Origin: Escherichia phage UPEC06 | Sequence record: MW250786 | DNA: 64,000 bases | Strand: one strand, 5' to 3' | Shown here: one piece after another, positions 2,251 to 45,552 of the stretch | How positions within the stretch are numbered: the first letter of the stretch is position 1 | Layout of the letters: each line of letters begins with the position of its first letter | Position numbers and translations under genes: made by a program | Notes under the pieces: generated by a model | What the model was told of the DNA's origin: nothing | Databases searched by the model: none | What the model saw: the letters and a program-made list of their open reading frames with translations, nothing else

Positions 2251-3885
2251 ATGGCTAGACCAACAACACCGATTGTTGTCTTTGCGGCACAAGATGTTAA
2301 CCTTCCTGGCACTGGAAGACCTAACAAATCAAAACCGATTGATGACCTTTTAGCGAAGGGCTATGACAAAGGACAAAAACCAGCGGCAGAGGAATTCAAC
2401 TATATTCTTCACCAATCTGGTGCTTGGCTTAACTGGATCGTAGAAGAGAAGTTCCCTGAAGTTGAAGAAGAATATAAGCGACTGATTCAGGAACTCGAAA
2501 CACGAGTAAACAATCAACTGGAAGTTATTCGTGAAGATGTTGCAAACGTAAGACAATCAGTTGCAACCTTGAGAACTTATGTAGAGCAAACTGTTGCAGA
2601 CATTCGTCGTGAGATCACTGCGGTTGATCAGCGTGTTACTCGTTTGTCTCAAGACTTGGATAATGCTGTTTCCAGATTAAACGCCCGTATTGATGAGCTT
2701 GAACCTCGTTTAGTTCCGATCGGTGCAATTCTTACTTGGGCAGGCCAAACACCTCCGGCGGGATTCTTGGAATGTAATGGACAGGTATACAGTACATCTC
2801 AAAACCCGAAACTTTATCAAGTCCTTGGTAGGAACGTAGTACCTGATTATCGTGGATTGTTCCTTCGTGGCTGGGCGCACGGATCTGGCGCTTACGATCC
2901 TGACTCTGGTCGTGCTTTGGGTTCTATTCAAGGTGATGCGATTCGAAACATTACTGGCGCGATGGGTTACGAAAGTATTCGTACTGACCACGGATATCGT
3001 GAGAGTGGTGCACTTTATACGCAATATAACTCAAACTCAGGTCCTGATCACGATCGTAAAAACCCAGCGGGTGATGTTCGATTTGATGCAAGCCGTGTTG
3101 TTCCGACTGCACCAGAAAACAGACCTAAGAACGTCGCAGTGATGTATATTATCAAGACTGATCAGGCACAAGGTACGGGAAGTCTGTCACCAACTGCACT
3201 TGTTACTACGCCGGACACTATTACAAACCGCGTAGGGTTTACTCAAGGGATTTCTGCTCAGGTTCTCCCTGCAAACTTGGCAAGTCAATACCCTGTGACG
3301 TGGACTTCTCAGAACGGTAATGTTGCAACAGTGGATAGTGCAGGTAACGTAAGATTAACTGGTCCAGGTGAAACTAACATTATCGCCTCTATCTCTACTG
3401 GTATCTCTGCCCAAGTTAAAATAGTTTCATATACACCACTGACAGCAATCAGTATCGGTAGCATACCTAGTGTAGAGGTTAATGATTCCGAGGTTATTCC
3501 TGTTAATAGAACACCTGCTAACTCTAACGAGCCTCTCGTGTATTCTACCAGTAATGCTAACGTCGCTGTTGTAACTCAAAGCGGTTACGTATCTGGTGTT
3601 TCTCCAGGTACAGCGGTAATAACAGTTCGTGGGTCTATCACAGGCATCCAAGCCACAAGACAGGTCACTGTAATTCCTGCAACGATTGTTCAGACCATAG
3701 AGGATGTTCGTTTAGGTCTTGAGCAACAGACGACAATGAATGGCGATGATTATACAAATCCTGTGCGTGCTCCGGCGGGTTGTGTTATTACTGGCGTTGT
3801 ATCAGCAGGTCTTGGGTTAAATCAAGGTTATTATAAACCGATCCAGAAGCGTATATCTGGCGTATGGGTAACGGTGGAGGGTTAA
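2251..3885 (+). CDS. tail fibre protein with phage tail-collar domain and C-terminal Ig-like (Big_2-type) repeats
   Basis: Motif LTWAGQTPPAGFLECNGQ...YQVLG...DYRGLFLRGW typical of tail-collar domain; N-terminal coiled-coil; C-terminal VTWTSQNGNVATVDSAGNV Ig-like repeats. Confidence 0.7.
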   Translation: MARPTTPIVVFAAQDVNLPGTGRPNKSKPIDDLLAKGYDKGQKPAAEEFNYILHQSGAWLNWIVEEKFPEVEEEYKRLIQELETRVNNQLEVIREDVANVRQSVATLRTYVEQTVADIRREITAVDQRVTRLSQDLDNAVSRLNARIDELEPRLVPIGAILTWAGQTPPAGFLECNGQVYSTSQNPKLYQVLGRNVVPDYRGLFLRGWAHGSGAYDPDSGRALGSIQGDAIRNITGAMGYESIRTDHGYRESGALYTQYNSNSGPDHDRKNPAGDVRFDASRVVPTAPENRPKNVAVMYIIKTDQAQGTGSLSPTALVTTPDTITNRVGFTQGISAQVLPANLASQYPVTWTSQNGNVATVDSAGNVRLTGPGETNIIASISTGISAQVKIVSYTPLTAISIGSIPSVEVNDSEVIPVNRTPANSNEPLVYSTSNANVAVVTQSGYVSGVSPGTAVITVRGSITGIQATRQVTVIPATIVQTIEDVRLGLEQQTTMNGDDYTNPVRAPAGCVITGVVSAGLGLNQGYYKPIQKRISGVWVTVEG

Positions 3886-18081: not shown

Positions 18082-20736
18082 TCAGTGGCACGCCCCCCAG
18101 TTCATCCCTGTGAGGTATTCACCTGTTATGTGTACAGGAGATTTCATCATTCGTGCTGCTTGCTCTACACAACGAACAACCATCTCTCCAACTGGACAAT
18201 ACATGATCGTGTAGATTCCATTCTCATCAGGATCACACTTAAACTTCCCTTCTTTCACACAATGACCATCCAAGATCATTTTCTTAGCCAAGCAAGCTTC
18301 TACAAATTTCTTCGCGTCAGCTTCGTTGTCAAAGGTCCAAGTCTTCTTGAACTTGTGCGGCACTTCAAGCTGGTATTCATCATGATAGTAAATGATACGG
18401 CGAACACCCTCATCATACCAACCTTTCTTGACCAACTGCCAGTGCAGGAGGATACCCACCAAGTCAAACAGTGCAGCACCACCATTCTGCTGATAAGCAT
18501 TAAGCAATGAGTGTTTGGAACGAGTGTAGATCTTACGTCCATCAAGACCGTAGATGAATCGCTTACCGTTAGCTTCCCAAAACTTCTCTAATGCTTCTTT
18601 ACGACCTTTCAAGCCGATGTTGCTATCCCAGAATGCGTCGATTACTGCCTGGGCTTTCTCAAGAGTGATTCCCAGCATTGATGCAATCTTCGCCGCCTGC
18701 GCCCCGTACATGATTCCGTATGTCACGCCTTTACCTTCACCACGAGAAACCTTCTTCCCTGCCGCTTTGGTATACGCTTCTGCGTTTCGGGAGTGAGCAT
18801 CTCCAGATTCCATGATACGAAGATAAGCGCCACCATCGAAATCATACGCGCCCCATGCCGCGATCATACCTTCCAAGTTTGAACCGTCGATACCTACCTG
18901 ATATTTACCCTCGGAGGCTCTAAACAGTTCACGCATCTCTTTACCGAGAAGAACTTTCTCATCCGGCTTAGGTACGTTTGCTACGATCGTATGCTTACGA
19001 CGACCTGTGTTAGTTATTCCACTATAACGGGCCGGAAGTTTACCGTCAACCCGTAGACGTGGATGGTTAAGCCATCCGGTATCAACCTTCTCTTCTTTCA
19101 GTGGGTCAAGAACAGATCGTCGGTTACGTAAAGACAGCCATTTAACAATCTGTTTAGCCATTTCACCATCTACTCGCTCAAGGTTAGGGCAAAGACCCTG
19201 CTGATCCTTAAGTTGTGGAGATGTTGGTAATGCACGGGCTTTCTTACGGAAGAACTTGAACATCTTTTCTTTATCGGACCACTGTTTAGGGGTGATCGAT
19301 AAGCTTTTCAGAATCAGATCACGATACTCCGTCTGATCCAAATCTTCAATATATTGACGAACAATCAGGTCAACCTCACTATCTGGACGTTGTTTCTTGA
19401 ACTGATCTTTAGTTGCATCCTTTGTACGCCAAATTGTTGGAATCCACCCTGCATCACGGATCAGGAACTTCTTAACGTCGTCCTGGTTACCAATACGCAT
19501 CGGGATCATAATGTCCGGCATCTTTTGTTCTTTGATATCCATCAAAGCACGAGCCATATCTTCCGGCGGCAAAGGAACAAGCCCTTGCTGCTTAACGTTT
19601 TGTGCACGGATAAAATCACCCATTTTGGATTCATCTTCTACACCGTGTTCAACACAATACTTGATCGCGGCGGCAGTAAGAGATCCGTCAGCCTTAAACG
19701 GCTTACTTGGTGCACCTTTAAACTCTAATGCTTCCCAATTGATATTATAACCTAACTTCTCTAACCATTTCCAACCTGTACCGGAAAGAGATCCATCACC
19801 CTTGAAAGGCTTAGATGGGAATGTCGGTTGTGCTGATTTCGACATTTCTTTCTTCGGTAACTTAGGTTCAACCTCTAACTCAATGTCTGTCATCATCTTA
19901 TCGATACGATCACGGAGCTTGAGTGCTTTTTCTTCATCAAATGAAACACCCTGAATCTCTTGCTCAATCATCAGGTAGTCGGTCAGCATACCTCGACGCA
20001 AGGCATTCTTCCAGTTGATCATTTTAAACTTCTTCTGATCTTTGTCTGTTTCATCCTTAAACATGAAGCGTTTATCATCGGGCATGGATTCACAAGAGAT
20101 CTCTTTCATCAGAGCATCCCACACCATTTCGTTGATAATTACGTCTTCAATAATACGATCGCAATATTTCCAAAGTGGAAGGCCACGCCAATCTTCAATC
20201 GCCACTTTCTGGTTGGCTACTCGCATACCCCAAGCTTCAAGCCCGTGAGGGCCTACAGGCTTCATTTTACCTGTGACTGGGTTCTTTACCATCTCGGGAC
20301 AACCACGAGGCAGAGGGCGATCTGGATACAATGTACGAGACATTGACAGTGTATCAAAGATGGTCACTTGTTTACCATTAATCGTACCCATGCAACCAGG
20401 GTCTGCAAACATATCGTAAGTTGTTCCAAGCATCTTCTTAAACAACTGGAGGTCGTAGCCGAAGATGTTGTGGATAGCAATTGCCTTAGGCTCTGTGACA
20501 AACCATTCGTTTAATTCTTCAATAGTGCGAATCTTAAAGTTTTTACCTTTAGATTGGATAAATTTAACAGCTTGATCGTAACCTTCCCGTTGGGGATCAA
20601 GAAAGATGTTCCAGTTATCTTTTTTATACTCTTTAAACAGGACGCAGTGAATGAGATCAACCTCTGTCAACAGGCCGTTAGCTTCCGCATCTCCAATAAA
20701 TAAGCCTTTCATTTTTTCTCCTTCTTTAAACTCCAA
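18082..20736 (-). CDS. DNA polymerase, family A, with 3'-5' exonuclease domain
   Basis: Exo I-like FIGDAEANG; motif A-like VGIDGSNLEGMIAAW; motif B-like RGEGKGVTYGIMYGAQ; motif C-like YYHDEYQLEV. Confidence 0.85.
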   Translation of the reverse strand: MEFKEGEKMKGLFIGDAEANGLLTEVDLIHCVLFKEYKKDNWNIFLDPQREGYDQAVKFIQSKGKNFKIRTIEELNEWFVTEPKAIAIHNIFGYDLQLFKKMLGTTYDMFADPGCMGTINGKQVTIFDTLSMSRTLYPDRPLPRGCPEMVKNPVTGKMKPVGPHGLEAWGMRVANQKVAIEDWRGLPLWKYCDRIIEDVIINEMVWDALMKEISCESMPDDKRFMFKDETDKDQKKFKMINWKNALRRGMLTDYLMIEQEIQGVSFDEEKALKLRDRIDKMMTDIELEVEPKLPKKEMSKSAQPTFPSKPFKGDGSLSGTGWKWLEKLGYNINWEALEFKGAPSKPFKADGSLTAAAIKYCVEHGVEDESKMGDFIRAQNVKQQGLVPLPPEDMARALMDIKEQKMPDIMIPMRIGNQDDVKKFLIRDAGWIPTIWRTKDATKDQFKKQRPDSEVDLIVRQYIEDLDQTEYRDLILKSLSITPKQWSDKEKMFKFFRKKARALPTSPQLKDQQGLCPNLERVDGEMAKQIVKWLSLRNRRSVLDPLKEEKVDTGWLNHPRLRVDGKLPARYSGITNTGRRKHTIVANVPKPDEKVLLGKEMRELFRASEGKYQVGIDGSNLEGMIAAWGAYDFDGGAYLRIMESGDAHSRNAEAYTKAAGKKVSRGEGKGVTYGIMYGAQAAKIASMLGITLEKAQAVIDAFWDSNIGLKGRKEALEKFWEANGKRFIYGLDGRKIYTRSKHSLLNAYQQNGGAALFDLVGILLHWQLVKKGWYDEGVRRIIYYHDEYQLEVPHKFKKTWTFDNEADAKKFVEACLAKKMILDGHCVKEGKFKCDPDENGIYTIMYCPVGEMVVRCVEQAARMMKSPVHITGEYLTGMNWGACH

Positions 20737-26243: not shown

Positions 26244-26304
26244 TTGTTTCTCCTTTCTGTTTGGTATGGGAGAAGTATAGGGGAGTTTAGGAGGGGTGTC
26301 AATA

Positions 26305-26334
26305 GAAAAACCGCCCGAAGGCGGTTTATTTTTA
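26305..26334 (-). terminator. Rho-independent terminator after helicase exon
   Basis: AAACCGCC-cgaa-GGCGGTTT hairpin with T-runs on both strands. Confidence 0.65.
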
Positions 26335-26337
26335 GGA

Positions 26338-27444
26338 TCAGAAAGGCGCGTCATCGTCCCAATCATCCGGCTCTGTGTCCGGCACATCAGGAATATCACC
26401 TGCGGATTCAACGATACTTTGTTGCTCCCATGTAGGTTCTTCTGAAGGTTGTTCCATTTCTTCCATAACCTTCTTGATCTCTTCCTCTTGCTCACGCAGG
26501 AAGTTATCATCCGGCTCAGGAATATCTTCCTCTTTAATATCTGAACGAGTGAGATCACTGTTTTGTTCAGACAGAGGTTGAATCTCTGCTGCCTTAGGCT
26601 TGAAGTCTGGAGAACGATGATCATCTTCTGGATGAGCGGCATACCACTCACGAAGAGTTTCATAAGGACTCTCTAAGAAGCCCTCTGGCGGTTCCAGATA
26701 ATCACCCGTGTCAATGTCATAGAACACAGGGAATTTACCAGCACGACCGTGTTTACGGTCATCCAGAATAACAAAGTAAGAAGTGTTACGTTGTTTCATC
26801 GGGAGTTCTGGATCTTTGTTACGTTCAATACCCCACATATAATAAGTGTTTCGCATCATTGCACGACTGCCAGCAAACTGCGCTGACTGGACTTGACCAC
26901 CAAATTCATGAGGCTTGCCAGATTCAGGCTTATTAAGGTGACAGAAGCAATAATAAGTAAAGCCAAGTTCTTTTGCCAGCTTAGAGATCTCATCCGAGAA
27001 TCGTTCCAGTTCCTGGTTAGCTTCGGAAGCACTCATACCTTGCACAAGACGAGTGATCGGGTCAATAAAGATATCTTCACAACCTTCTACAATCACTGCG
27101 TGACGGATAGCACCTTTCAGTTCATCCCATACTGCACGACCATAGTTGTTATAATAGATGACACTATCACCAACCTCATCTGTAGCTTTGATCAGTTCTT
27201 CTTGCTTAAAGTAGCCACGTTGCCCTTCAAATACTTCATTACCCCAAATGTCACGGAAAGTTCCATCTTCTTGAGGAATCATTACCTTTTCTGCGTTAAC
27301 AAAGTCTTTATGATAACGCTTACCTGCGATCTTTTTACAGGTAATTTCGTTCTCTTCTTCAAACTTAAACACCGCAGCTTTTGACTTCTCAATACCCGTG
27401 ATGTGTTCAACCATTTGGTTAAGAAGTTCAGACTTGCCCATTTT
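26338..27444 (-). CDS. primase-helicase, exon 2 (T7 gp4-like DnaB-family helicase domain, acidic C-terminal tail)
   Basis: Begins at Walker A (K)MGKSELLNQ; CFCHLNKPESGKPHEFGG...ALMRNTYYMWGIERNK resembles T7 gp4 helicase motifs; ends DDWDDDAPF; no own ATG/RBS, track start is TTG two codons after a stop. Confidence 0.6.
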   Translation of the reverse strand, partial: KMGKSELLNQMVEHITGIEKSKAAVFKFEEENEITCKKIAGKRYHKDFVNAEKVMIPQEDGTFRDIWGNEVFEGQRGYFKQEELIKATDEVGDSVIYYNNYGRAVWDELKGAIRHAVIVEGCEDIFIDPITRLVQGMSASEANQELERFSDEISKLAKELGFTYYCFCHLNKPESGKPHEFGGQVQSAQFAGSRAMMRNTYYMWGIERNKDPELPMKQRNTSYFVILDDRKHGRAGKFPVFYDIDTGDYLEPPEGFLESPYETLREWYAAHPEDDHRSPDFKPKAAEIQPLSEQNSDLTRSDIKEEDIPEPDDNFLREQEEEIKKVMEEMEQPSEEPTWEQQSIVESAGDIPDVPDTEPDDWDDDAPF

Positions 27445-28200
27445 CACCGTTATGTTCAGCAAGGTTCGCTACTCCTTGCCCGTTCTCTAAGAACTGCTAC
27501 ATGTCCCCATGCAGACCAGACTATATCTTCAACCCGTAAAACAGGTGCTATGCACTTCGAGCCGCTTGGCCCTACTCTACTCGGTTCAAGAGCTTTGCTC
27601 TTGCCTTTCGATAGTCGTTGCTCCTTCCTCTCAACCGCTTTGTAATCTCTCGAACTGTATCGCGATGAATACCAAAATATTGTGCAATTTCTTTCTGAAG
27701 CATGGTTGTTTTAATGACCATATCATAAACTTCTTTTTCGAAATCATCATCGAATCGGTTTGGGTTTCTTCTTCCCGCTTTCCAACCGTGATCAACATTT
27801 TGCTTTGTAGTCATCCATTCTAGATTACTATCTGCGTTATTTTTCCTGTCTCTATCTTTATGATTAACGACAGGTAGATTATAAGGATTTTCTACATAAT
27901 GTTCAGCCACAAGTTGATGTATAAATCTCCTAGTGACCTTACCATTCTTACTTAATGAAACTCTTAGATACCCTGCACTATTCGTGTCTGGCTTTAGTTT
28001 CTTAAGTTTTCGGTACACATCTCCGCGTCTGGTAATTATGTATTGTTCAAAACCCTTTATTCTTTTCATTTCAACCTCCCTTTTAATGATAACAAAGAGG
28101 TTGAGAGGCTTGGATCAGGATTATCTGTTCTAGACTTCCCCTGAATTCACATAGTATTTAGTCGAGGCATTACTGCCAAGGCTGGCTAGACTTAATGTTT
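27445..28200 (-). mobile_element. putative group I intron (~756 nt) carrying an HNH homing endonuclease ORF
   Basis: Upstream exon ends in U; intron nt 15-20 GCCAGC can pair with exon GCUGGU (P1 with U.G); intron ends in G; phase-0 join restores Walker A; internal HNH ORF. Confidence 0.55.
27572..28069 (-). CDS. HNH homing endonuclease
   Basis: HNH motif VVNHKDRDRKNNADSNLEWMTTKQN, basic helical C-terminus, strong GGGAGG RBS; lies inside putative intron. Confidence 0.7.
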   Translation of the reverse strand: MKRIKGFEQYIITRRGDVYRKLKKLKPDTNSAGYLRVSLSKNGKVTRRFIHQLVAEHYVENPYNLPVVNHKDRDRKNNADSNLEWMTTKQNVDHGWKAGRRNPNRFDDDFEKEVYDMVIKTTMLQKEIAQYFGIHRDTVREITKRLRGRSNDYRKARAKLLNRVE

Positions 28201-29136
28201 ACCAGCACCGATGAAGTAACCTTCACCTGGACGACGACCCAAGGTAAGCTTGGTCATGGTGGGCCAAGGGAACTTCTTGCCGAGTTTAGGGATCTCATGT
28301 GCCTTTTCGCGGAACTGTGAATAAGTCGAGAAACCATCAGGCACATATTCTTTTGGCTTCATTGCAGCCCAAAACAACTGATCAGAAAGACCTTTGTTAT
28401 ACATATCGCAAGGGTCCATATCTTCTGGAATATCCACGACCTTCATTTGTGGAATTACAGAGTATACCGCTGCAACTGCATCTTTACCTTTCATGATCCC
28501 TTTGGCCTTCTCTGCTTCTGTCGCACGGTCAGCATCGAAAGCTACGATAATCTCTTCAAACTTACTCAGAAGCTTATAGTTATTCTTCTGTGATAAGTTT
28601 TGCACGGCATTTGATGTACCGTTAGAGATAGATACAACTGTGAAGTTTGGTTTACGGGTGGAACCATCCTTCGGTTTGTACTTCTCTGTCAATACCTGCC
28701 ACAAGATTGCAGCATCGTATTCACCTTCAGTGATAAAGATCATACGTTTGGAAGACTTATTTGCACCTTCCAGCCCAAACATATCACAAGCCACAGATTG
28801 GAAACCAATAGTTGTAAAGTGACCTTTCTGTTGCTTAGGGATCGTAAGATCACGCTTCTTAAAACCTACAACCTTACCTTCCAATGTGTACGGAAAATAA
28901 TGCGCCTCTGGTGTCATACCGTCTTTAGCTGACAACTTGGTACGAATACCAAATCGTTTAGCTGTCTTTTCGTCGATACCACGCTCAGGGATACTTTTAC
29001 ACGGATAAGTCAATACGTCTTCAACTGTTTCTTCCACACGAGACACACCACCACCATAATTACGTGCTACTGAAGCTTTAGGATTTTTATGTCCAAACTT
29101 ATAACCGCCAAACAGACTTTCGCCAATAGTGCTCAT
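28201..29136 (-). CDS. primase-helicase, exon 1 (TOPRIM primase domain)
   Basis: TOPRIM motifs IFITEGEYDAAIL and IIVAFDADRATE; C-terminal KLTLGRRPGEGYFIGAG resembles the DnaB/gp4 segment before Walker A; no N-terminal Cys4 zinc ribbon. Confidence 0.6.
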
Positions 29137-30470: not shown

Positions 30471-31829
30471 TTATTGATCCTTGAAGATACTGGGGAACTT
30501 CTCATGATAGAAGTTTACAACATCTTGGTCAACAATGATATCTTTTACTCGTAAGCGTTTCAAAAGGCGAAGACCTTCTACACTCGTGGCACGGGAGAGC
30601 ATAACATATGCTTGACCAGGTGTGAAAGTACCAAAGCCGAGATCGATGTTTACCTTACCTAAAGTTAAACCTTGTGCCTTGTGACCAGTGATCGCATAGC
30701 CCAACTTGAATGGGTATTGAATGTATTCACCAATAGATTTATCAACAAGAACAGTCTTTTCAACCATCTTCTTGATCATCTTTTTAGTCCCGTCCGGCAT
30801 ATCAACCTCTTCCTCTTCAAGCATCATCTTTTTCTCAGGTACTTGAGCAACGTTGTTCCATGTTGCAGGGCCAATTGGGACCATTTTACCATCAATATCT
30901 ACAACAACGAAGGTTTTTGCGATACGACGAACAATACCAACTGTACCATTGACATAATCAGGGACTTTCTTCTTCTGATCATTATCGTTAACGACAATCA
31001 TCACTTTAAGACCTTCCTTAAGGAAAAGTTTTTCATTGACTGGACGTTCAACAAATTCACCAGTAATACGAGCATTGAACTCATGCTGTTCAGCATTAAT
31101 CTTTGCATATTCTTTGTTGTTGATCTCTTCTGCCAGCTTGTTCGTGGTAGTTAAAGTTACTGCCCCGTCAAGTGGACGACCAAAGCAACGCTGGTTAAAG
31201 AAGTTAACGGCATCAGGGATGTTTTTCCCGATACGAATATTGTTCAGGTGTTCTGCAAACACTGGATCACTTTGGCGATGAACTTTAGGGAGATAAGCAT
31301 AGGTCAGATTCAAAGATTCCCAAGTTTCGCACCCAAAAGGAATTTCTTTCCCGTGCAGTTCACGGAACAAAGGAACCTCTTCTTTCTTAAGTACAGGCTT
31401 GATCTGGAAACCGTCACCAAACATGATGATCTGGAGTCCACCAAAAGGCTTATCGGATTTACGATGGTGGCGAAGTTTCATATCGATTTCTTTCAGTTTG
31501 TCACTTCGAGTCATGCCGATCTCATCAAACACGATACCATCGAGTGCATCAGATGCCATAAGCATAGCTGCCTTTTTAGATTTTGCCTTATAATCCTCAG
31601 ATGTTGTAACCCCAAATGTCAAACCAAAGGCTTTGTGGGTGGTAACACCACGAATGTTTAATGATGCTACACCTGTTGGTCCAACGAACAAGAAACTATC
31701 GGCAAAGAAATCACGAAGTGCTGCGATCATCATACTTTTGCCACTACCACCAGGTCCAGTGATAAAAACGTTTTCACCATTCATGATTGCTTGCATCGCT
31801 GCTTCGTTACCGATCACTGTCTTAGTCAT
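30471..31829 (-). CDS. SF1 DNA helicase, Dda/RecD-like
   Basis: Walker A FITGPGGSGKS, Walker B IVFDEIGM, HRQSD-type motif. Confidence 0.7.
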   Translation of the reverse strand: MTKTVIGNEAAMQAIMNGENVFITGPGGSGKSMMIAALRDFFADSFLFVGPTGVASLNIRGVTTHKAFGLTFGVTTSEDYKAKSKKAAMLMASDALDGIVFDEIGMTRSDKLKEIDMKLRHHRKSDKPFGGLQIIMFGDGFQIKPVLKKEEVPLFRELHGKEIPFGCETWESLNLTYAYLPKVHRQSDPVFAEHLNNIRIGKNIPDAVNFFNQRCFGRPLDGAVTLTTTNKLAEEINNKEYAKINAEQHEFNARITGEFVERPVNEKLFLKEGLKVMIVVNDNDQKKKVPDYVNGTVGIVRRIAKTFVVVDIDGKMVPIGPATWNNVAQVPEKKMMLEEEEVDMPDGTKKMIKKMVEKTVLVDKSIGEYIQYPFKLGYAITGHKAQGLTLGKVNIDLGFGTFTPGQAYVMLSRATSVEGLRLLKRLRVKDIIVDQDVVNFYHEKFPSIFKDQ

Positions 31830-45230: not shown

Positions 45231-45305
45231 TCACAAGAAGGGGTTGACGAGTGTCGCCCCTTGATTTAAACTTCAGTTATCGAAAGAAAGAGAGGAATCT
45301 AGATA

Positions 45306-45521
45306 ATGACTAAGCTTGTAACTTACGTGTTCGAAGGTGATGCTGTACCAACTGAATTTTTTGAAGATGTTTACAGCAATGATCGTGGAGTGGAACCTTT
45401 AAAGGTTTTACTTGTTGATGTTACCAACTATGGTGATGATATCGAAGTCACAGTGCAAGGAACAACCCAACAAGTCATTGATGAACGTATGAAGTATTGG
45501 GCACTGTTGCTGAAAAAATAA
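45306..45521 (+). CDS. hypothetical protein
   Basis: 71-aa acidic ORF with RBS. Confidence 0.4.
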   Translation: MTKLVTYVFEGDAVPTEFFEDVYSNDRGVEPLKVLLVDVTNYGDDIEVTVQGTTQQVIDERMKYWALLLKK

Positions 45522-45552
45522 AAAGTTATTTTAAATTACATAGGAGAAAGAA

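What the first reader, a model, noticed from the sequence alone, without database searches (positions are those of the whole stretch)
26338..29136. T7 gp4-like primase-helicase gene appears split by a group I-like intron carrying an HNH homing endonuclease
Seen directly: the TOPRIM primase ORF (28201-29136, - strand) ends ...KLTLGRRPGEGYFIGAGKH*, which is the DnaB/gp4 segment just before the P-loop. The helicase ORF (26338-27444) has no ATG or RBS and begins two codons after a stop with ...KMGKSELLNQ, the second half of a Walker A motif. Joining after GGU (28201) to AAA (27444) is phase 0 and gives YFIGAGKMGKSELL, a complete GxxxxGKS P-loop aligned to the T7 gp4 region. The upstream exon ends in U, the putative intron's last base is G, and intron nt 15-20 (GCCAGC) can pair with exon GCUGGU including the terminal U.G wobble, as expected for a P1 helix. 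The ~756-nt intervening segment holds a free-standing HNH ORF with its own strong RBS. Group I introns with HNH genes are established in phage replication genes, but this insertion in the P-loop of a gp4-type protein is not something I can match to a described case from memory.
Basis: partly seen in the sequence, partly recalled or inferred. Interest (0 to 1): 0.8.

Follow-up and report, generated by a model that had tools for sequence, protein, structure and literature searches.

The report
Self-splicing intron splitting phage primase-helicase gene
A phage replication gene (a T7 gp4-type primase-helicase) is interrupted, inside the codons for its ATP-binding loop, by a mobile self-splicing group I intron that carries its own HNH nuclease gene; this is a real but ordinary kind of phage parasite, sitting at an insertion site I could not find described.

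Summary
The window comes from a Vequintavirinae-like E. coli phage. Its gp4-like gene (- strand) is interrupted by a 753-nt group I intron (28200..27448) that carries an I-HmuI-like HNH gene (28069..27572).

The 3' splice site is after G27448, not G27445. Exon 2 therefore starts GUG (27447). The spliced product is 681 aa with P-loop GAGVKMGKS, and it is 680/681 identical to the uninterrupted gene of phage LTH01.

Evidence for the ribozyme:
- Both halves of the intron hit Rfam RF00028.
- A natural ORF-less copy at the same site in phage W70 scores 70.4 bits (threshold 50).
- Across 10 related introns, 22 of 47 base pairs show compensatory changes.

Evidence for mobility: the window matches LTH01 outside the intron, except for 17 synonymous changes clustered at -43..+86. 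In that stretch it is identical to intron-bearing phages. This is a co-conversion tract.

Related introns sit at two other positions within 12 nt in the P-loop codons of other phages' gp4 genes, and also in nrdA, RNA polymerase and DNA polymerase genes. None of the records fetched annotates an intron, and I found no paper describing one in this gene. Verdict: new member of a known kind. Splicing itself was not tested.

The parts
28201..29136 (-). Exon 1 of the gp4-like primase-helicase gene: 312 codons covering the TOPRIM primase domain and the first half of Walker A (...YFIGAG).
   Evidence: ORF. phrog_239 E=5e-75, profile positions 101-366. 100% identical to intronless LTH01 from -936 to -44 relative to the junction.
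27448..28200 (-). Group I intron, 753 nt. It starts AAACAUUAAG... and ends ...GAACAUAACG (omega-G = 27448).
   Evidence: Exactly absent from LTH01 and A73. RF00028 partial hits. The ORF-less allele in W70 scores 70.4 bits. Covariation.
28181..28206 (-). P1 helix: exon GCUGGU (28206..28201) pairs with the internal guide sequence GCCAGC (28186..28181). U28201.G forms the wobble pair at the 5' splice site.
   Evidence: Sequence. In relatives the guide sequence changes together with the exon: GGCGU/GCGCC, AUGCGU/GCGCAU, AUGGGU/GCCCAU, ACCCGU/GCGGGU.
28166..28177 (-). P2 hairpin GGCA-GUAA-UGCC. The loop is GAGA in A5-4, A7_1 and W70.
   Evidence: Read by hand. Not tested by covariation.
28109..28161 (-). 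5' core: P3 5' strand (28154..28149), P4 (28144..28139 with 28120..28115) and P5 (28135..28123).
   Evidence: RNAalifold and pair counts: P3 has 5 of 7 pairs with compensatory changes, P4 3 of 7, P5 2 of 4.
27572..28069 (-). Intron-encoded HNH homing endonuclease gene (165 aa), lying in the P6 loop. RBS GGGAGG at 28080..28075. Its last ~60 nt overlap P6', P7, P7.1 and the start of P7.2.
   Evidence: Pfam HNH_3 28.2 bits, cutoff 24.8. PDB 1u3e I-HmuI E=2.7e-14. phrog_59 E=6e-40. ORF-less W70 retains the overlapped 3' part.
27448..27622 (-). 3' core: P7 5' strand GACUA (27616..27612), P7.1 (27603..27587), P7.2 (27572..27559), P3' (27553..27548), P8 (27546..27532), J8/7 plus P7' GAAGAUAUAGUC (27530..27519), P9 (27514..27497), P9.1 (27494..27482), P9.2 (27479..27459) and omega-G 27448.
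   Evidence: RF00028 hit at 27497-27683, 24.5 bits. Compensatory changes in P7.2 (4 of 5 pairs) and P9.2 (6 of 7). P8 and P7.1 covariation seen by eye only, because MAFFT misaligned them. Coordinates.
26338..27447 (-). Exon 2: 369 codons plus stop. It starts GUG AAA AUG GGC AAG UCU (VKMGKS), so it holds the second half of Walker A, the DnaB/gp4-type helicase domain and an acidic C-terminal tail.
   Evidence: 680/681 identical to LTH01. Pfam DnaB_C E=5e-6. phrog_239 profile positions 368-658.
27361..28244 (-). Co-conversion tract: the intron plus at least 43 nt of exon 1 and at least 87 nt of exon 2. These flanks carry the sequence of intron-bearing phages inside an otherwise LTH01-type gene.
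   Evidence: Against LTH01 there are 8 differences at -43..-1 and 9 at +2..+86, then none until +437, and none from -936 to -44. Against A7_1 and W70 there are no differences from -138 to +58. All differences are synonymous.
26308..26327 (-). Terminator-like hairpin just downstream of the gene's stop codon.
   Evidence: Conserved in LTH01, A5-4 and W70.

Best explanation
The gp4-like primase-helicase gene is one gene interrupted by a mobile group I intron. The intron has IA-type architecture, with P7.1/P7.2 and an extended P9.

Proposed mechanism:
- The gene is transcribed on the - strand as a single pre-mRNA.
- The ribozyme folds, and the last six exon-1 bases (GCUGGU) pair with the guide sequence GCCAGC to form P1.
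- A free guanosine attacks after U28201.
- The freed exon-1 3'-OH then attacks after omega-G27448.
- This ligates ...GGU|GUG... and restores one 681-aa reading frame with an intact Walker A loop, GAGVKMGKS.

The intron's P6 loop holds a free-standing gene, with its own ribosome-binding site, for an I-HmuI-type HNH endonuclease. In mixed infections this enzyme is expected to cut or nick intronless alleles near the P-loop codons. Repair then copies the intron, together with short stretches of flanking exon, into the recipient (homing).

Shown here: exact absence and presence of the intron among near-identical phages, the conserved and covarying ribozyme fold, the restored frame, and the co-conversion tract.

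Inferred: catalysis of splicing, endonuclease activity, and the cleavage site.
For: (1) Precise polymorphism. LTH01 and A73 have an uninterrupted 2046-nt gene. The window, A5-4, A7_1 and W70 carry the insert at the same point.

(2) Removing 28200..27448 gives a protein 680/681 identical to LTH01, with the conserved GAGVKMGKS. The T7 gp4 alignment passes through the junction.

(3) Ribozyme.
- RF00028 matches both halves of the intron in the window.
- The natural ORF-less allele at the same site in W70 scores 70.4 bits and Roth32 scores 84.7, against a threshold of 50.
- RNAalifold on 10 ORF-deleted cores recovers P3, P4, P5, P7.2, P9, P9.1 and P9.2.
- 97.4% of cells are paired and 22 of 47 pairs show compensatory changes. 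0 of 500 shuffles reach these values, and slid controls give 28-45% paired.
- P1 guide sequences co-vary with the different host exons, always with U.G at the splice site.

(4) HNH. I-HmuI homologue at E=2.7e-14, with the HKD...NN...NLEW motif region aligned. Pfam HNH_3 is above its cutoff.

(5) Mobility. A reciprocal polymorphism also exists: LTH01 has a 772-bp interruption of its split DNA-polymerase gene (not analysed as an intron) that the window lacks.

(6) Purifying selection across both exons in intron-bearing phages: 38-73 nt differences give only 1-8 aa changes, mostly in the C-terminal tail. The gene must therefore still be expressed as a whole.

(7) Related HNH-carrying introns in Vequintavirinae phage CB7 (terL, DNA pol, NrdA, NrdB) splice in vivo by RT-PCR and cDNA sequencing (PMC7344957). 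The CB7 nrdA intron shares 82.6% identity over 91 nt of the 3' core with this one (H18).
Against: - There are no RNA data for this phage, so splicing and the exact junction are inferred.
- The window's own RF00028 scores are below the gathering threshold (24.5 and 18.1 against 50), because the 498-nt ORF splits the model.
- No convincing P10 pairing with exon 2 was found by inspection.
- A second G three nt downstream (27445) would also give an in-frame product, so minor alternative 3' splice-site use cannot be excluded.
- The intron core differs 9% and the ORF 21% from A5-4, yet the flanking exons are identical to A7_1 and W70. A simple single-donor history does not explain this.
Confidence: 0.9

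Rival explanations
1. The intron splices, but at the reader's 3' site (after G27445). Val313 is lost and the product is a 680-aa protein with P-loop GAGKMGKS.
For: The junction is in frame. G27445 could serve as omega-G. The product still fits the GxxxxGK[ST] pattern.
Against: - Val is present in every homologue examined, both intronless and distant.
- Splicing after G27448 reproduces LTH01 at 680/681 residues.
- The ten related introns whose 3' end was located finish ...AACG| or ...UAAG| at the position homologous to 27448. In those relatives only that G restores the frame (KZY1, Z1, VL73, JSF38, L018, L020, L029, L031, L032).
Confidence: 0.05
2. The insert does not splice. It would be a homing-endonuclease cassette that leaves a 'gene in pieces', like mobE in Aeromonas phage Aeh1 nrdA. 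Primase (ending GAGKH*) and helicase (starting at Met of MGKS or at TTG 27462) would be made as two polypeptides that associate.
For: - GenBank annotators called two separate CDSs in A5-4 and A7_1.
- An in-frame ATG exists at 27441, preceded by a weak GGUG.
- The CB7 paper reports one HNH insert (NAPRTase gene) that did not splice.
Against: - The break falls inside the Walker A loop, so neither fragment would carry a complete P-loop.
- The flanking RNA keeps a full group I fold with compensatory changes, and the ORF-less allele passes RF00028. A non-splicing cassette has no reason to maintain this fold.
- U at -1, omega-G and phase are all conserved.
Confidence: 0.04
3. The gene is a decaying pseudogene, inactivated by a dead intron or HEG. 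Replication would rely on other helicases, such as the 452-aa helicase at 30471..31829.
For: A second helicase gene lies nearby.
Against: - Both exons stay open and are under strong purifying selection in four intron-bearing phages: 38-73 nt differences give 1-8 aa changes.
- The HNH ORF is intact in three of them.
- The ribozyme helices are maintained by compensatory substitutions.
Confidence: 0.01

Closest known systems
Bacillus phage SPO1 DNA-polymerase group I intron encoding I-HmuI (and the related I-BasI and I-TwoI introns)
   Same: A phage group I intron in a replication gene that carries a free-standing HNH endonuclease ORF. The window's HNH aligns to the I-HmuI structure 1u3e over residues 2-106, E=2.7e-14.
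   Different: The host gene is a primase-helicase, not a DNA polymerase. The host phage is an enterobacterial Vequintavirinae-like phage. The nicking versus double-strand cutting behaviour and the cleavage site of this enzyme are unknown.
HNH-carrying group I introns of Pectobacterium phage CB7 (Certrevirus, Vequintavirinae) in terL, DNA pol, nrdA and nrdB (PMC7344957)
   Same: Same phage subfamily. The CB7 nrdA intron shares the 3' core sequence (82.6% over 91 nt) and the same helices. Splicing of the CB7 introns was shown by RT-PCR.
   Different: CB7's own primase/helicase gene is uninterrupted. The HNH proteins are only ~35% identical. The insertion site and guide sequence differ.
Unannotated related introns in gp4-type genes of other phages: Klebsiella phages vB_Kp_Z1 and Roth32, oyster Zobellviridae phage KZY1, Erwinia VL73, Vibrio JSF38, and IMG/VR contigs L018, L020, L029, L031, L032
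   Same: Same intron family: shared core, mean column identity 75%. Same host-gene family. Several are also inside the Walker A codons. The L020 HNH is 70% identical to the window's.
   Different: The insertion points differ. The window has GAG|VKMGKS. Z1, Roth32 and L029 have GAGTGV|GKT (phase 2). KZY1, L018, L020, L031 and L032 have ..KMG|KS. VL73 and JSF38 are inserted in the primase-helicase linker. No IMG/VR contig carried the window's site.
T4 td / nrdB / nrdD (sunY) IA2 introns (recalled from established literature; review PMC2988022 was listed but not read in detail)
   Same: Phage group I introns with the ORF looped out of a peripheral helix, the ORF 3' end overlapping core sequence, P7.1/P7.2, homing with co-conversion of flanking exons, and ORF-less variants in relatives.
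   Different: The T4 introns encode GIY-YIG or other endonucleases and sit in nucleotide-metabolism genes.
Inteins in DnaB/gp4-type helicases inserted at the P-loop (recalled from memory, not tested here)
   Same: A selfish element targets the most conserved motif (Walker A) of a replicative helicase.
   Different: Inteins are removed at the protein level and are in frame. Here the insert has in-frame stops immediately after the 5' junction (AAA CAT TAA) and is an RNA-level intron.

Membership tests
Group I intron (Rfam RF00028) | P1 helix between the 5' exon end and an internal guide sequence, with a U.G wobble at the 5' splice site | tested here: met
   GCUGGU (28206..28201) pairs with GCCAGC (28186..28181). 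In relatives the guide sequence changes to match each different exon.
Group I intron (Rfam RF00028) | Terminal guanosine (omega-G) at the 3' splice site, with exon ligation restoring the reading frame | tested here: met
   G27448. Ligation gives a product 680/681 identical to intronless LTH01. The 3' end is homologous to ...AACG| in relatives.
Group I intron (Rfam RF00028) | Conserved catalytic core (P3-P8, J8/7, P7) scoring above the family's gathering threshold | tested here: inconclusive
   The window scores 24.5 and 18.1 bits for the two halves, below 50, because the ORF splits the model. The natural ORF-less allele at the same site in W70 (89% identical over the 282 aligned nt) scores 70.4 bits, E=1.5e-16.
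Group I intron (Rfam RF00028) | Helices supported by compensatory base changes | tested here: met
   22 of 47 pairs have changes on both sides. 97.4% of cells are paired, against 28-45% in slid controls. 0 of 500 shuffles reach these values. P7 is invariant and therefore uninformative. P8 and P7.1 were judged by eye only.
Group I intron (Rfam RF00028) | Guanosine-dependent self-splicing | not testable with these tools
   Only indirect evidence: RT-PCR-proven splicing of related CB7 introns (PMC7344957), and purifying selection on both exons.
Subgroup IA (IA2-like) group I introns | Extra P7.1/P7.2 helices between P7 and P3' | tested here: met
   P7.2 (27572..27559) has 4 of 5 covarying pairs. 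P7.1 is seen by hand in all members: UCCN/N'GGA in the short form, extended to CAAGAGC/GCUCUUG in the window. The subgroup label itself rests on recalled criteria.
HNH homing endonucleases of the I-HmuI type | HNH (beta-beta-alpha-metal) nuclease domain | tested here: met
   Pfam HNH_3 28.2 bits, cutoff 24.8. PDB 1u3e E=2.7e-14, with the HKD..NN..NLEW region aligned. phrog_59 E=6e-40.
HNH homing endonucleases of the I-HmuI type | Site-specific cleavage of the intronless allele and promotion of homing | tested here: inconclusive
   Enzyme activity cannot be tested. The co-conversion tract (-43..+86) in an LTH01-type background is the expected footprint of homing.
T7 gp4-type bifunctional primase-helicase | TOPRIM primase domain fused to a DnaB-family (RecA-fold) helicase domain with Walker A | tested here: met
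   The spliced product matches T7 gp4 structures 5ikn, 6n7i and 1q57 at E=2e-20 to 2e-18, over query residues 51-529. phrog_239 matches both halves. Pfam Toprim hits are below cutoff and DnaB_C is just below (26.5 against 27) on the separate halves.
T7 gp4-type bifunctional primase-helicase | N-terminal Cys4 zinc-binding domain of the full-length (63-kDa) gp4 | tested here: not met
   The alignment to gp4 starts at gp4 residue ~83. The first 50 residues contain a single Cys. In this respect the protein resembles the short gp4 form.
Intein | An in-frame insertion translated together with the host protein | tested here: not met
   There is an in-frame TAA two codons after the 5' junction (AAA CAT TAA). 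The HNH ORF has its own RBS and start.

The most novel reading that the evidence does not exclude
A 12-nt stretch encoding the Walker A loop of gp4-type helicases is a hotspot. One intron lineage has colonised it at three different positions: GAG|V, GV|GK and MG|KS. Two of these sites are occupied in related Vequintavirinae-like phages by introns whose HNH proteins are 70% identical. That pattern would imply movement to adjacent new sites with re-adaptation of the guide sequence, by reverse splicing or illegitimate recombination, and not only homing to a fixed site. It would offer a natural, closely spaced series for testing how group I introns change insertion sites.
Probability: 0.4. Interest if true: 0.55.

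Novelty: new member of a known kind. Interest (0 to 1): 0.35.

Why it matters
- Annotation. In A5-4, A7_1, W70, Z1, VL73, JSF38 and KZY1 the gene is deposited as two or three separate CDSs (labelled 'DNA primase/helicase' or 'hypothetical protein', most with an HNH gene between them), with no intron annotated. The correct product is a single 681-aa protein.
- Biology. The case adds the replicative primase-helicase, and specifically its P-loop codons, to the list of phage genes targeted by group I introns. That motif was previously known as an intein target.
- Evidence of recent mobility. The window phage and LTH01 are near-identical apart from the intron and a short co-conversion tract. LTH01 in turn carries a 772-bp interruption of its split DNA-polymerase gene (not analysed as an intron) that the window lacks. 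These elements therefore appear to be moving among contemporary E. coli phages. This matters for phage-cocktail genome stability and for marker exclusion between co-infecting phages.
- Mechanistically nothing here is unexpected.

Tried and rejected
- Rfam at gathering threshold on the whole window gave no hit, because the ORF splits the model. I resolved this by scoring the natural ORF-less alleles.
- A shifted junction, GG|...C|GGUG, encodes the same protein but violates both the U(-1) rule and the omega-G rule.
- The MAFFT alignment of the cores misregisters P8 by one column and misplaces the long P7.1 of the window group. I left these two helices out of the formal pair count and describe them only by eye. 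One search failed on a mistyped structure string.
- I looked for a P10 pairing between exon 2 and the P1 loop and found none convincing.
- My first regex for the P4 motif and 3' end in the IMG/VR loci missed most of them. This was fixed.
- Intein, gene-in-pieces and pseudogene readings were considered and rejected (see rivals).
- Six full-text literature searches plus the 2014 bacterial group I intron review found no description of a group I intron in a gp4/DnaB-type primase-helicase. The library does not cover most subscription-journal papers, so absence is not proof.
- The weak gyrA-RNA hit at 27261-27325 (E=0.58) was treated as chance.
Full report
**What is in the sequence**

On the - strand the window holds three ORFs in a row:
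- a 314-aa ORF (29136..28192) that ends ...GRRPGEGYFIGAGKH*;
- a 165-aa ORF (28069..27572), preceded by GGGAGG;
- an ORF that runs to 26338 and contains ...VKMGKSELLNQ... near its start.

Family searches identify them:
- Pfam and PHROGs call the first a TOPRIM primase part and the third a DnaB-type helicase part of one family. Both hit phrog_239 'DNA primase/helicase' at E=5e-75. The N half matches profile positions 101-366 and the C half 368-658.
- The middle ORF is an HNH endonuclease. Pfam HNH_3 is above its cutoff. It is homologous to the SPO1 intron endonuclease I-HmuI, PDB 1u3e, E=2.7e-14.

**Where the window comes from, and the natural control**

The region is 93-98% identical to five E. 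coli phages classified in Vequintavirinae:
- LTH01 and A73 have an uninterrupted 2046-nt 'DNA primase/helicase' gene.
- A5-4 and A7_1 have the same interruption as the window.
- W70 has a 283-nt ORF-less version at the same point. It also has a second, 846-nt HNH-containing insert further downstream.
- About 35 more distant homologues (Certrevirus and others) are uninterrupted.

The four-way alignment shows that the insert is exactly absent from LTH01.

**The junction**

That join is in frame but yields GAGKMGKS.
- LTH01 reads GAGVKMGKS. So do CB7, Kashira, pEp_SNUABM_01 and Vibrio phage 11895-B1. Salmonella phage 7-11 has GGGVGGGKT.
- Splicing after G27448 (...GAACAUAACG|GUGAAAAUG) gives a 681-aa product that is 680/681 identical to LTH01.
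- The ten related introns whose 3' end was located finish at the homologous ...AACG| (PPWS1...UUAAG|). In those introns only that G restores the frame.
- The intron is therefore 28200..27448, 753 nt.
- The spliced protein aligns to T7 gp4 structures (5ikn, 6n7i, 1q57) at E~1e-20. IGAGVKMGKS lies over T7's VTSGSGMGKS.

**Is it a group I intron?**

- Rfam RF00028 matches both halves around the ORF. The P1-P6 region at 28229..27977 scores 18.1 bits. The P7-P9 region at 27683..27497 scores 24.5 bits, E=0.0011, and includes the hallmark GAAGAUAUAGUC.
- Neither half reaches the threshold, because the ORF splits the model, and nothing in the window does.
- The natural ORF-less allele in W70 scores 70.4 bits (threshold 50, E=1.5e-16). 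An ORF-less relative in Klebsiella phage Roth32 scores 84.7 bits.
- By hand I placed P1 (GCUGGU/GCCAGC with U.G), P2, P3, P4, P5, P6 (with the ORF in its loop), P7, P7.1, P7.2, P8, P9, P9.1 and P9.2.
- I aligned ORF-deleted cores of ten related introns. RNAalifold independently predicted P3, P4, P5, P7.2, P9, P9.1 and P9.2.
- For those helices plus P7, 97.4% of cells form standard pairs and 22 of 47 pairs show changes on both sides. 0 of 500 shuffles reach these values. Sliding the partners by 1-3 columns drops pairing to 28-45%.
- P8 and P7.1 also covary by eye, but MAFFT misregistered them, so I did not count them.
- Guide sequences differ between family members in step with their exons. Examples are GGCGU/GCGCC, AUGCGU/GCGCAU, AUGGGU/GCCCAU and ACCCGU/GCGGGU.

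**Evidence that the gene is still used, and that the intron moved recently**

- Between the window and the other four phages, the conceptual spliced genes differ at 38-73 nucleotides but only 1-8 amino acids. Nearly all amino-acid changes are in the acidic C-terminal tail.
- Against intronless LTH01, exon 1 is identical from -936 to -44. There are then 8 differences at -43..-1 and 9 at +2..+86, and none again until +437.
- Across that same stretch the window is identical to intron-bearing A7_1 and W70, from -138 to +58.
- All these differences are synonymous. They include the two positions (-1 and -4) that must change for the LTH01-type exon (GCAGGG) to pair with the guide sequence.
- This is the footprint expected from homing with co-conversion of flanking exon.
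- Reciprocally, LTH01 carries a 772-bp interruption with an ORF in its split DNA-polymerase gene (not analysed as an intron). The window lacks it.

**The wider family**

Parts of the 3' core match introns in other phages (H16-H28). A pattern scan of IMG/VR found 16 more. The hosts are:
- gp4-type genes, at several sites:
  - Klebsiella phages Z1 and Roth32 and contig L029 at GAGTGV|GKT;
  - oyster phage KZY1 and contigs L018, L020, L031 and L032 at ..KMG|KS;
  - Erwinia VL73 and Vibrio JSF38 in the primase-helicase linker;
- CB7/phiTE nrdA;
- PPWS1 RNA polymerase;
- DNA-polymerase motif B, by my reading of the flanking codons only.

Three distinct sites within 12 nt of P-loop codons are therefore used. 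The window's site (GAG|V) was seen only in the window, A5-4, A7_1 and W70. L020 is a Vequintavirinae-like contig whose HNH is 70% identical to the window's, yet its intron sits 12 nt downstream. None of the GenBank records I fetched annotates an intron or a joined CDS.

**What is known**

- HNH-carrying group I introns in phage replication and nucleotide-metabolism genes are textbook cases.
- In Vequintavirinae phage CB7, such introns in terL, DNA pol, nrdA and nrdB were shown to splice by RT-PCR and cDNA sequencing (PMC7344957). CB7's own primase/helicase gene is uninterrupted.
- Six full-text searches and the 2014 review of bacterial group I introns gave no description of a group I intron in a gp4/DnaB-type primase-helicase. 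The library is incomplete, so this is weak negative evidence.

**Verdict**

The finding is real and correctly interpreted, apart from a 3-nt error in the 3' splice site. It is a new member, at a new insertion site and host gene, of a well-known kind of element. Splicing and endonuclease activity are inferred, not shown.

Interest is moderate to low (0.35). The most interesting residue is the cluster of three insertion sites in the P-loop codons used by one intron lineage.

Noticed in passing
window 18381/18382 (DNA polymerase ORF 18082..20736, - strand); LTH01 locus L033 29197-29968: LTH01's DNA-polymerase gene is split by a 772-bp insert with a 163-aa ORF (L033 29325-29816). I did not analyse it as an intron. 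The window's polymerase ORF is continuous at that point. This is the reciprocal of the primase-helicase polymorphism.
   Followed up: partly
window 26851/26850 (equivalent site); W70 locus L003 ~2350-3200: W70 has a second, 846-nt group I-like intron with a different 183-aa HNH gene in the helicase part, after ...SRAMMR| (P1 AUGCGU/GCGCAU; RF00028 25.3 bits). The window lacks it and has CGA instead of CGU at the site.
   Followed up: partly
window 27361..28244 compared with A5-4, A7_1 and W70: The flanking exons are identical to A7_1 and W70 over about 200 nt. The intron itself differs from theirs by ~9% in the ribozyme core and ~21% in the HNH ORF (85% aa identity). A5-4 has a shorter downstream donor-type tract. 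A single recent donor does not explain this. ORF or core exchange between related introns, or constraint on the flanks, may be involved.
   Followed up: partly
window 28987..29136 (N-terminus of the primase part): The protein has no Cys4 zinc-binding domain. Alignment to T7 gp4 begins at about gp4 residue 83, and the first 50 residues contain one Cys. It therefore resembles the short form of gp4.
   Followed up: no
window 30169/30170 and 45293..45541: There are two further indels relative to LTH01. The window lacks 219 bp holding a small LTH01 CDS (L033 17940-18158). It also has about 250 extra bp containing a 71-aa ORF (45306..45521).
   Followed up: no
loci L019, L021-L028, L030 (IMG/VR) and L013/L022/L026 (PPWS1): The same intron family also sits in what look, from the flanking codons alone, like DNA polymerase motif B codons (…KAPSFA|AQYGA…, …KAANYA|…YGVGAAK…), with and without an ORF. 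It also sits in the RNA polymerase gene of Pectobacterium phage PPWS1.
   Followed up: partly
window 26274..26327: A bidirectional terminator-like hairpin (26308-26327) lies immediately after the primase-helicase stop codon. It is followed on the - strand by a near-consensus sigma-70-like promoter (TTGACA-17-TATACT, 11 of 12 matches).
   Followed up: no
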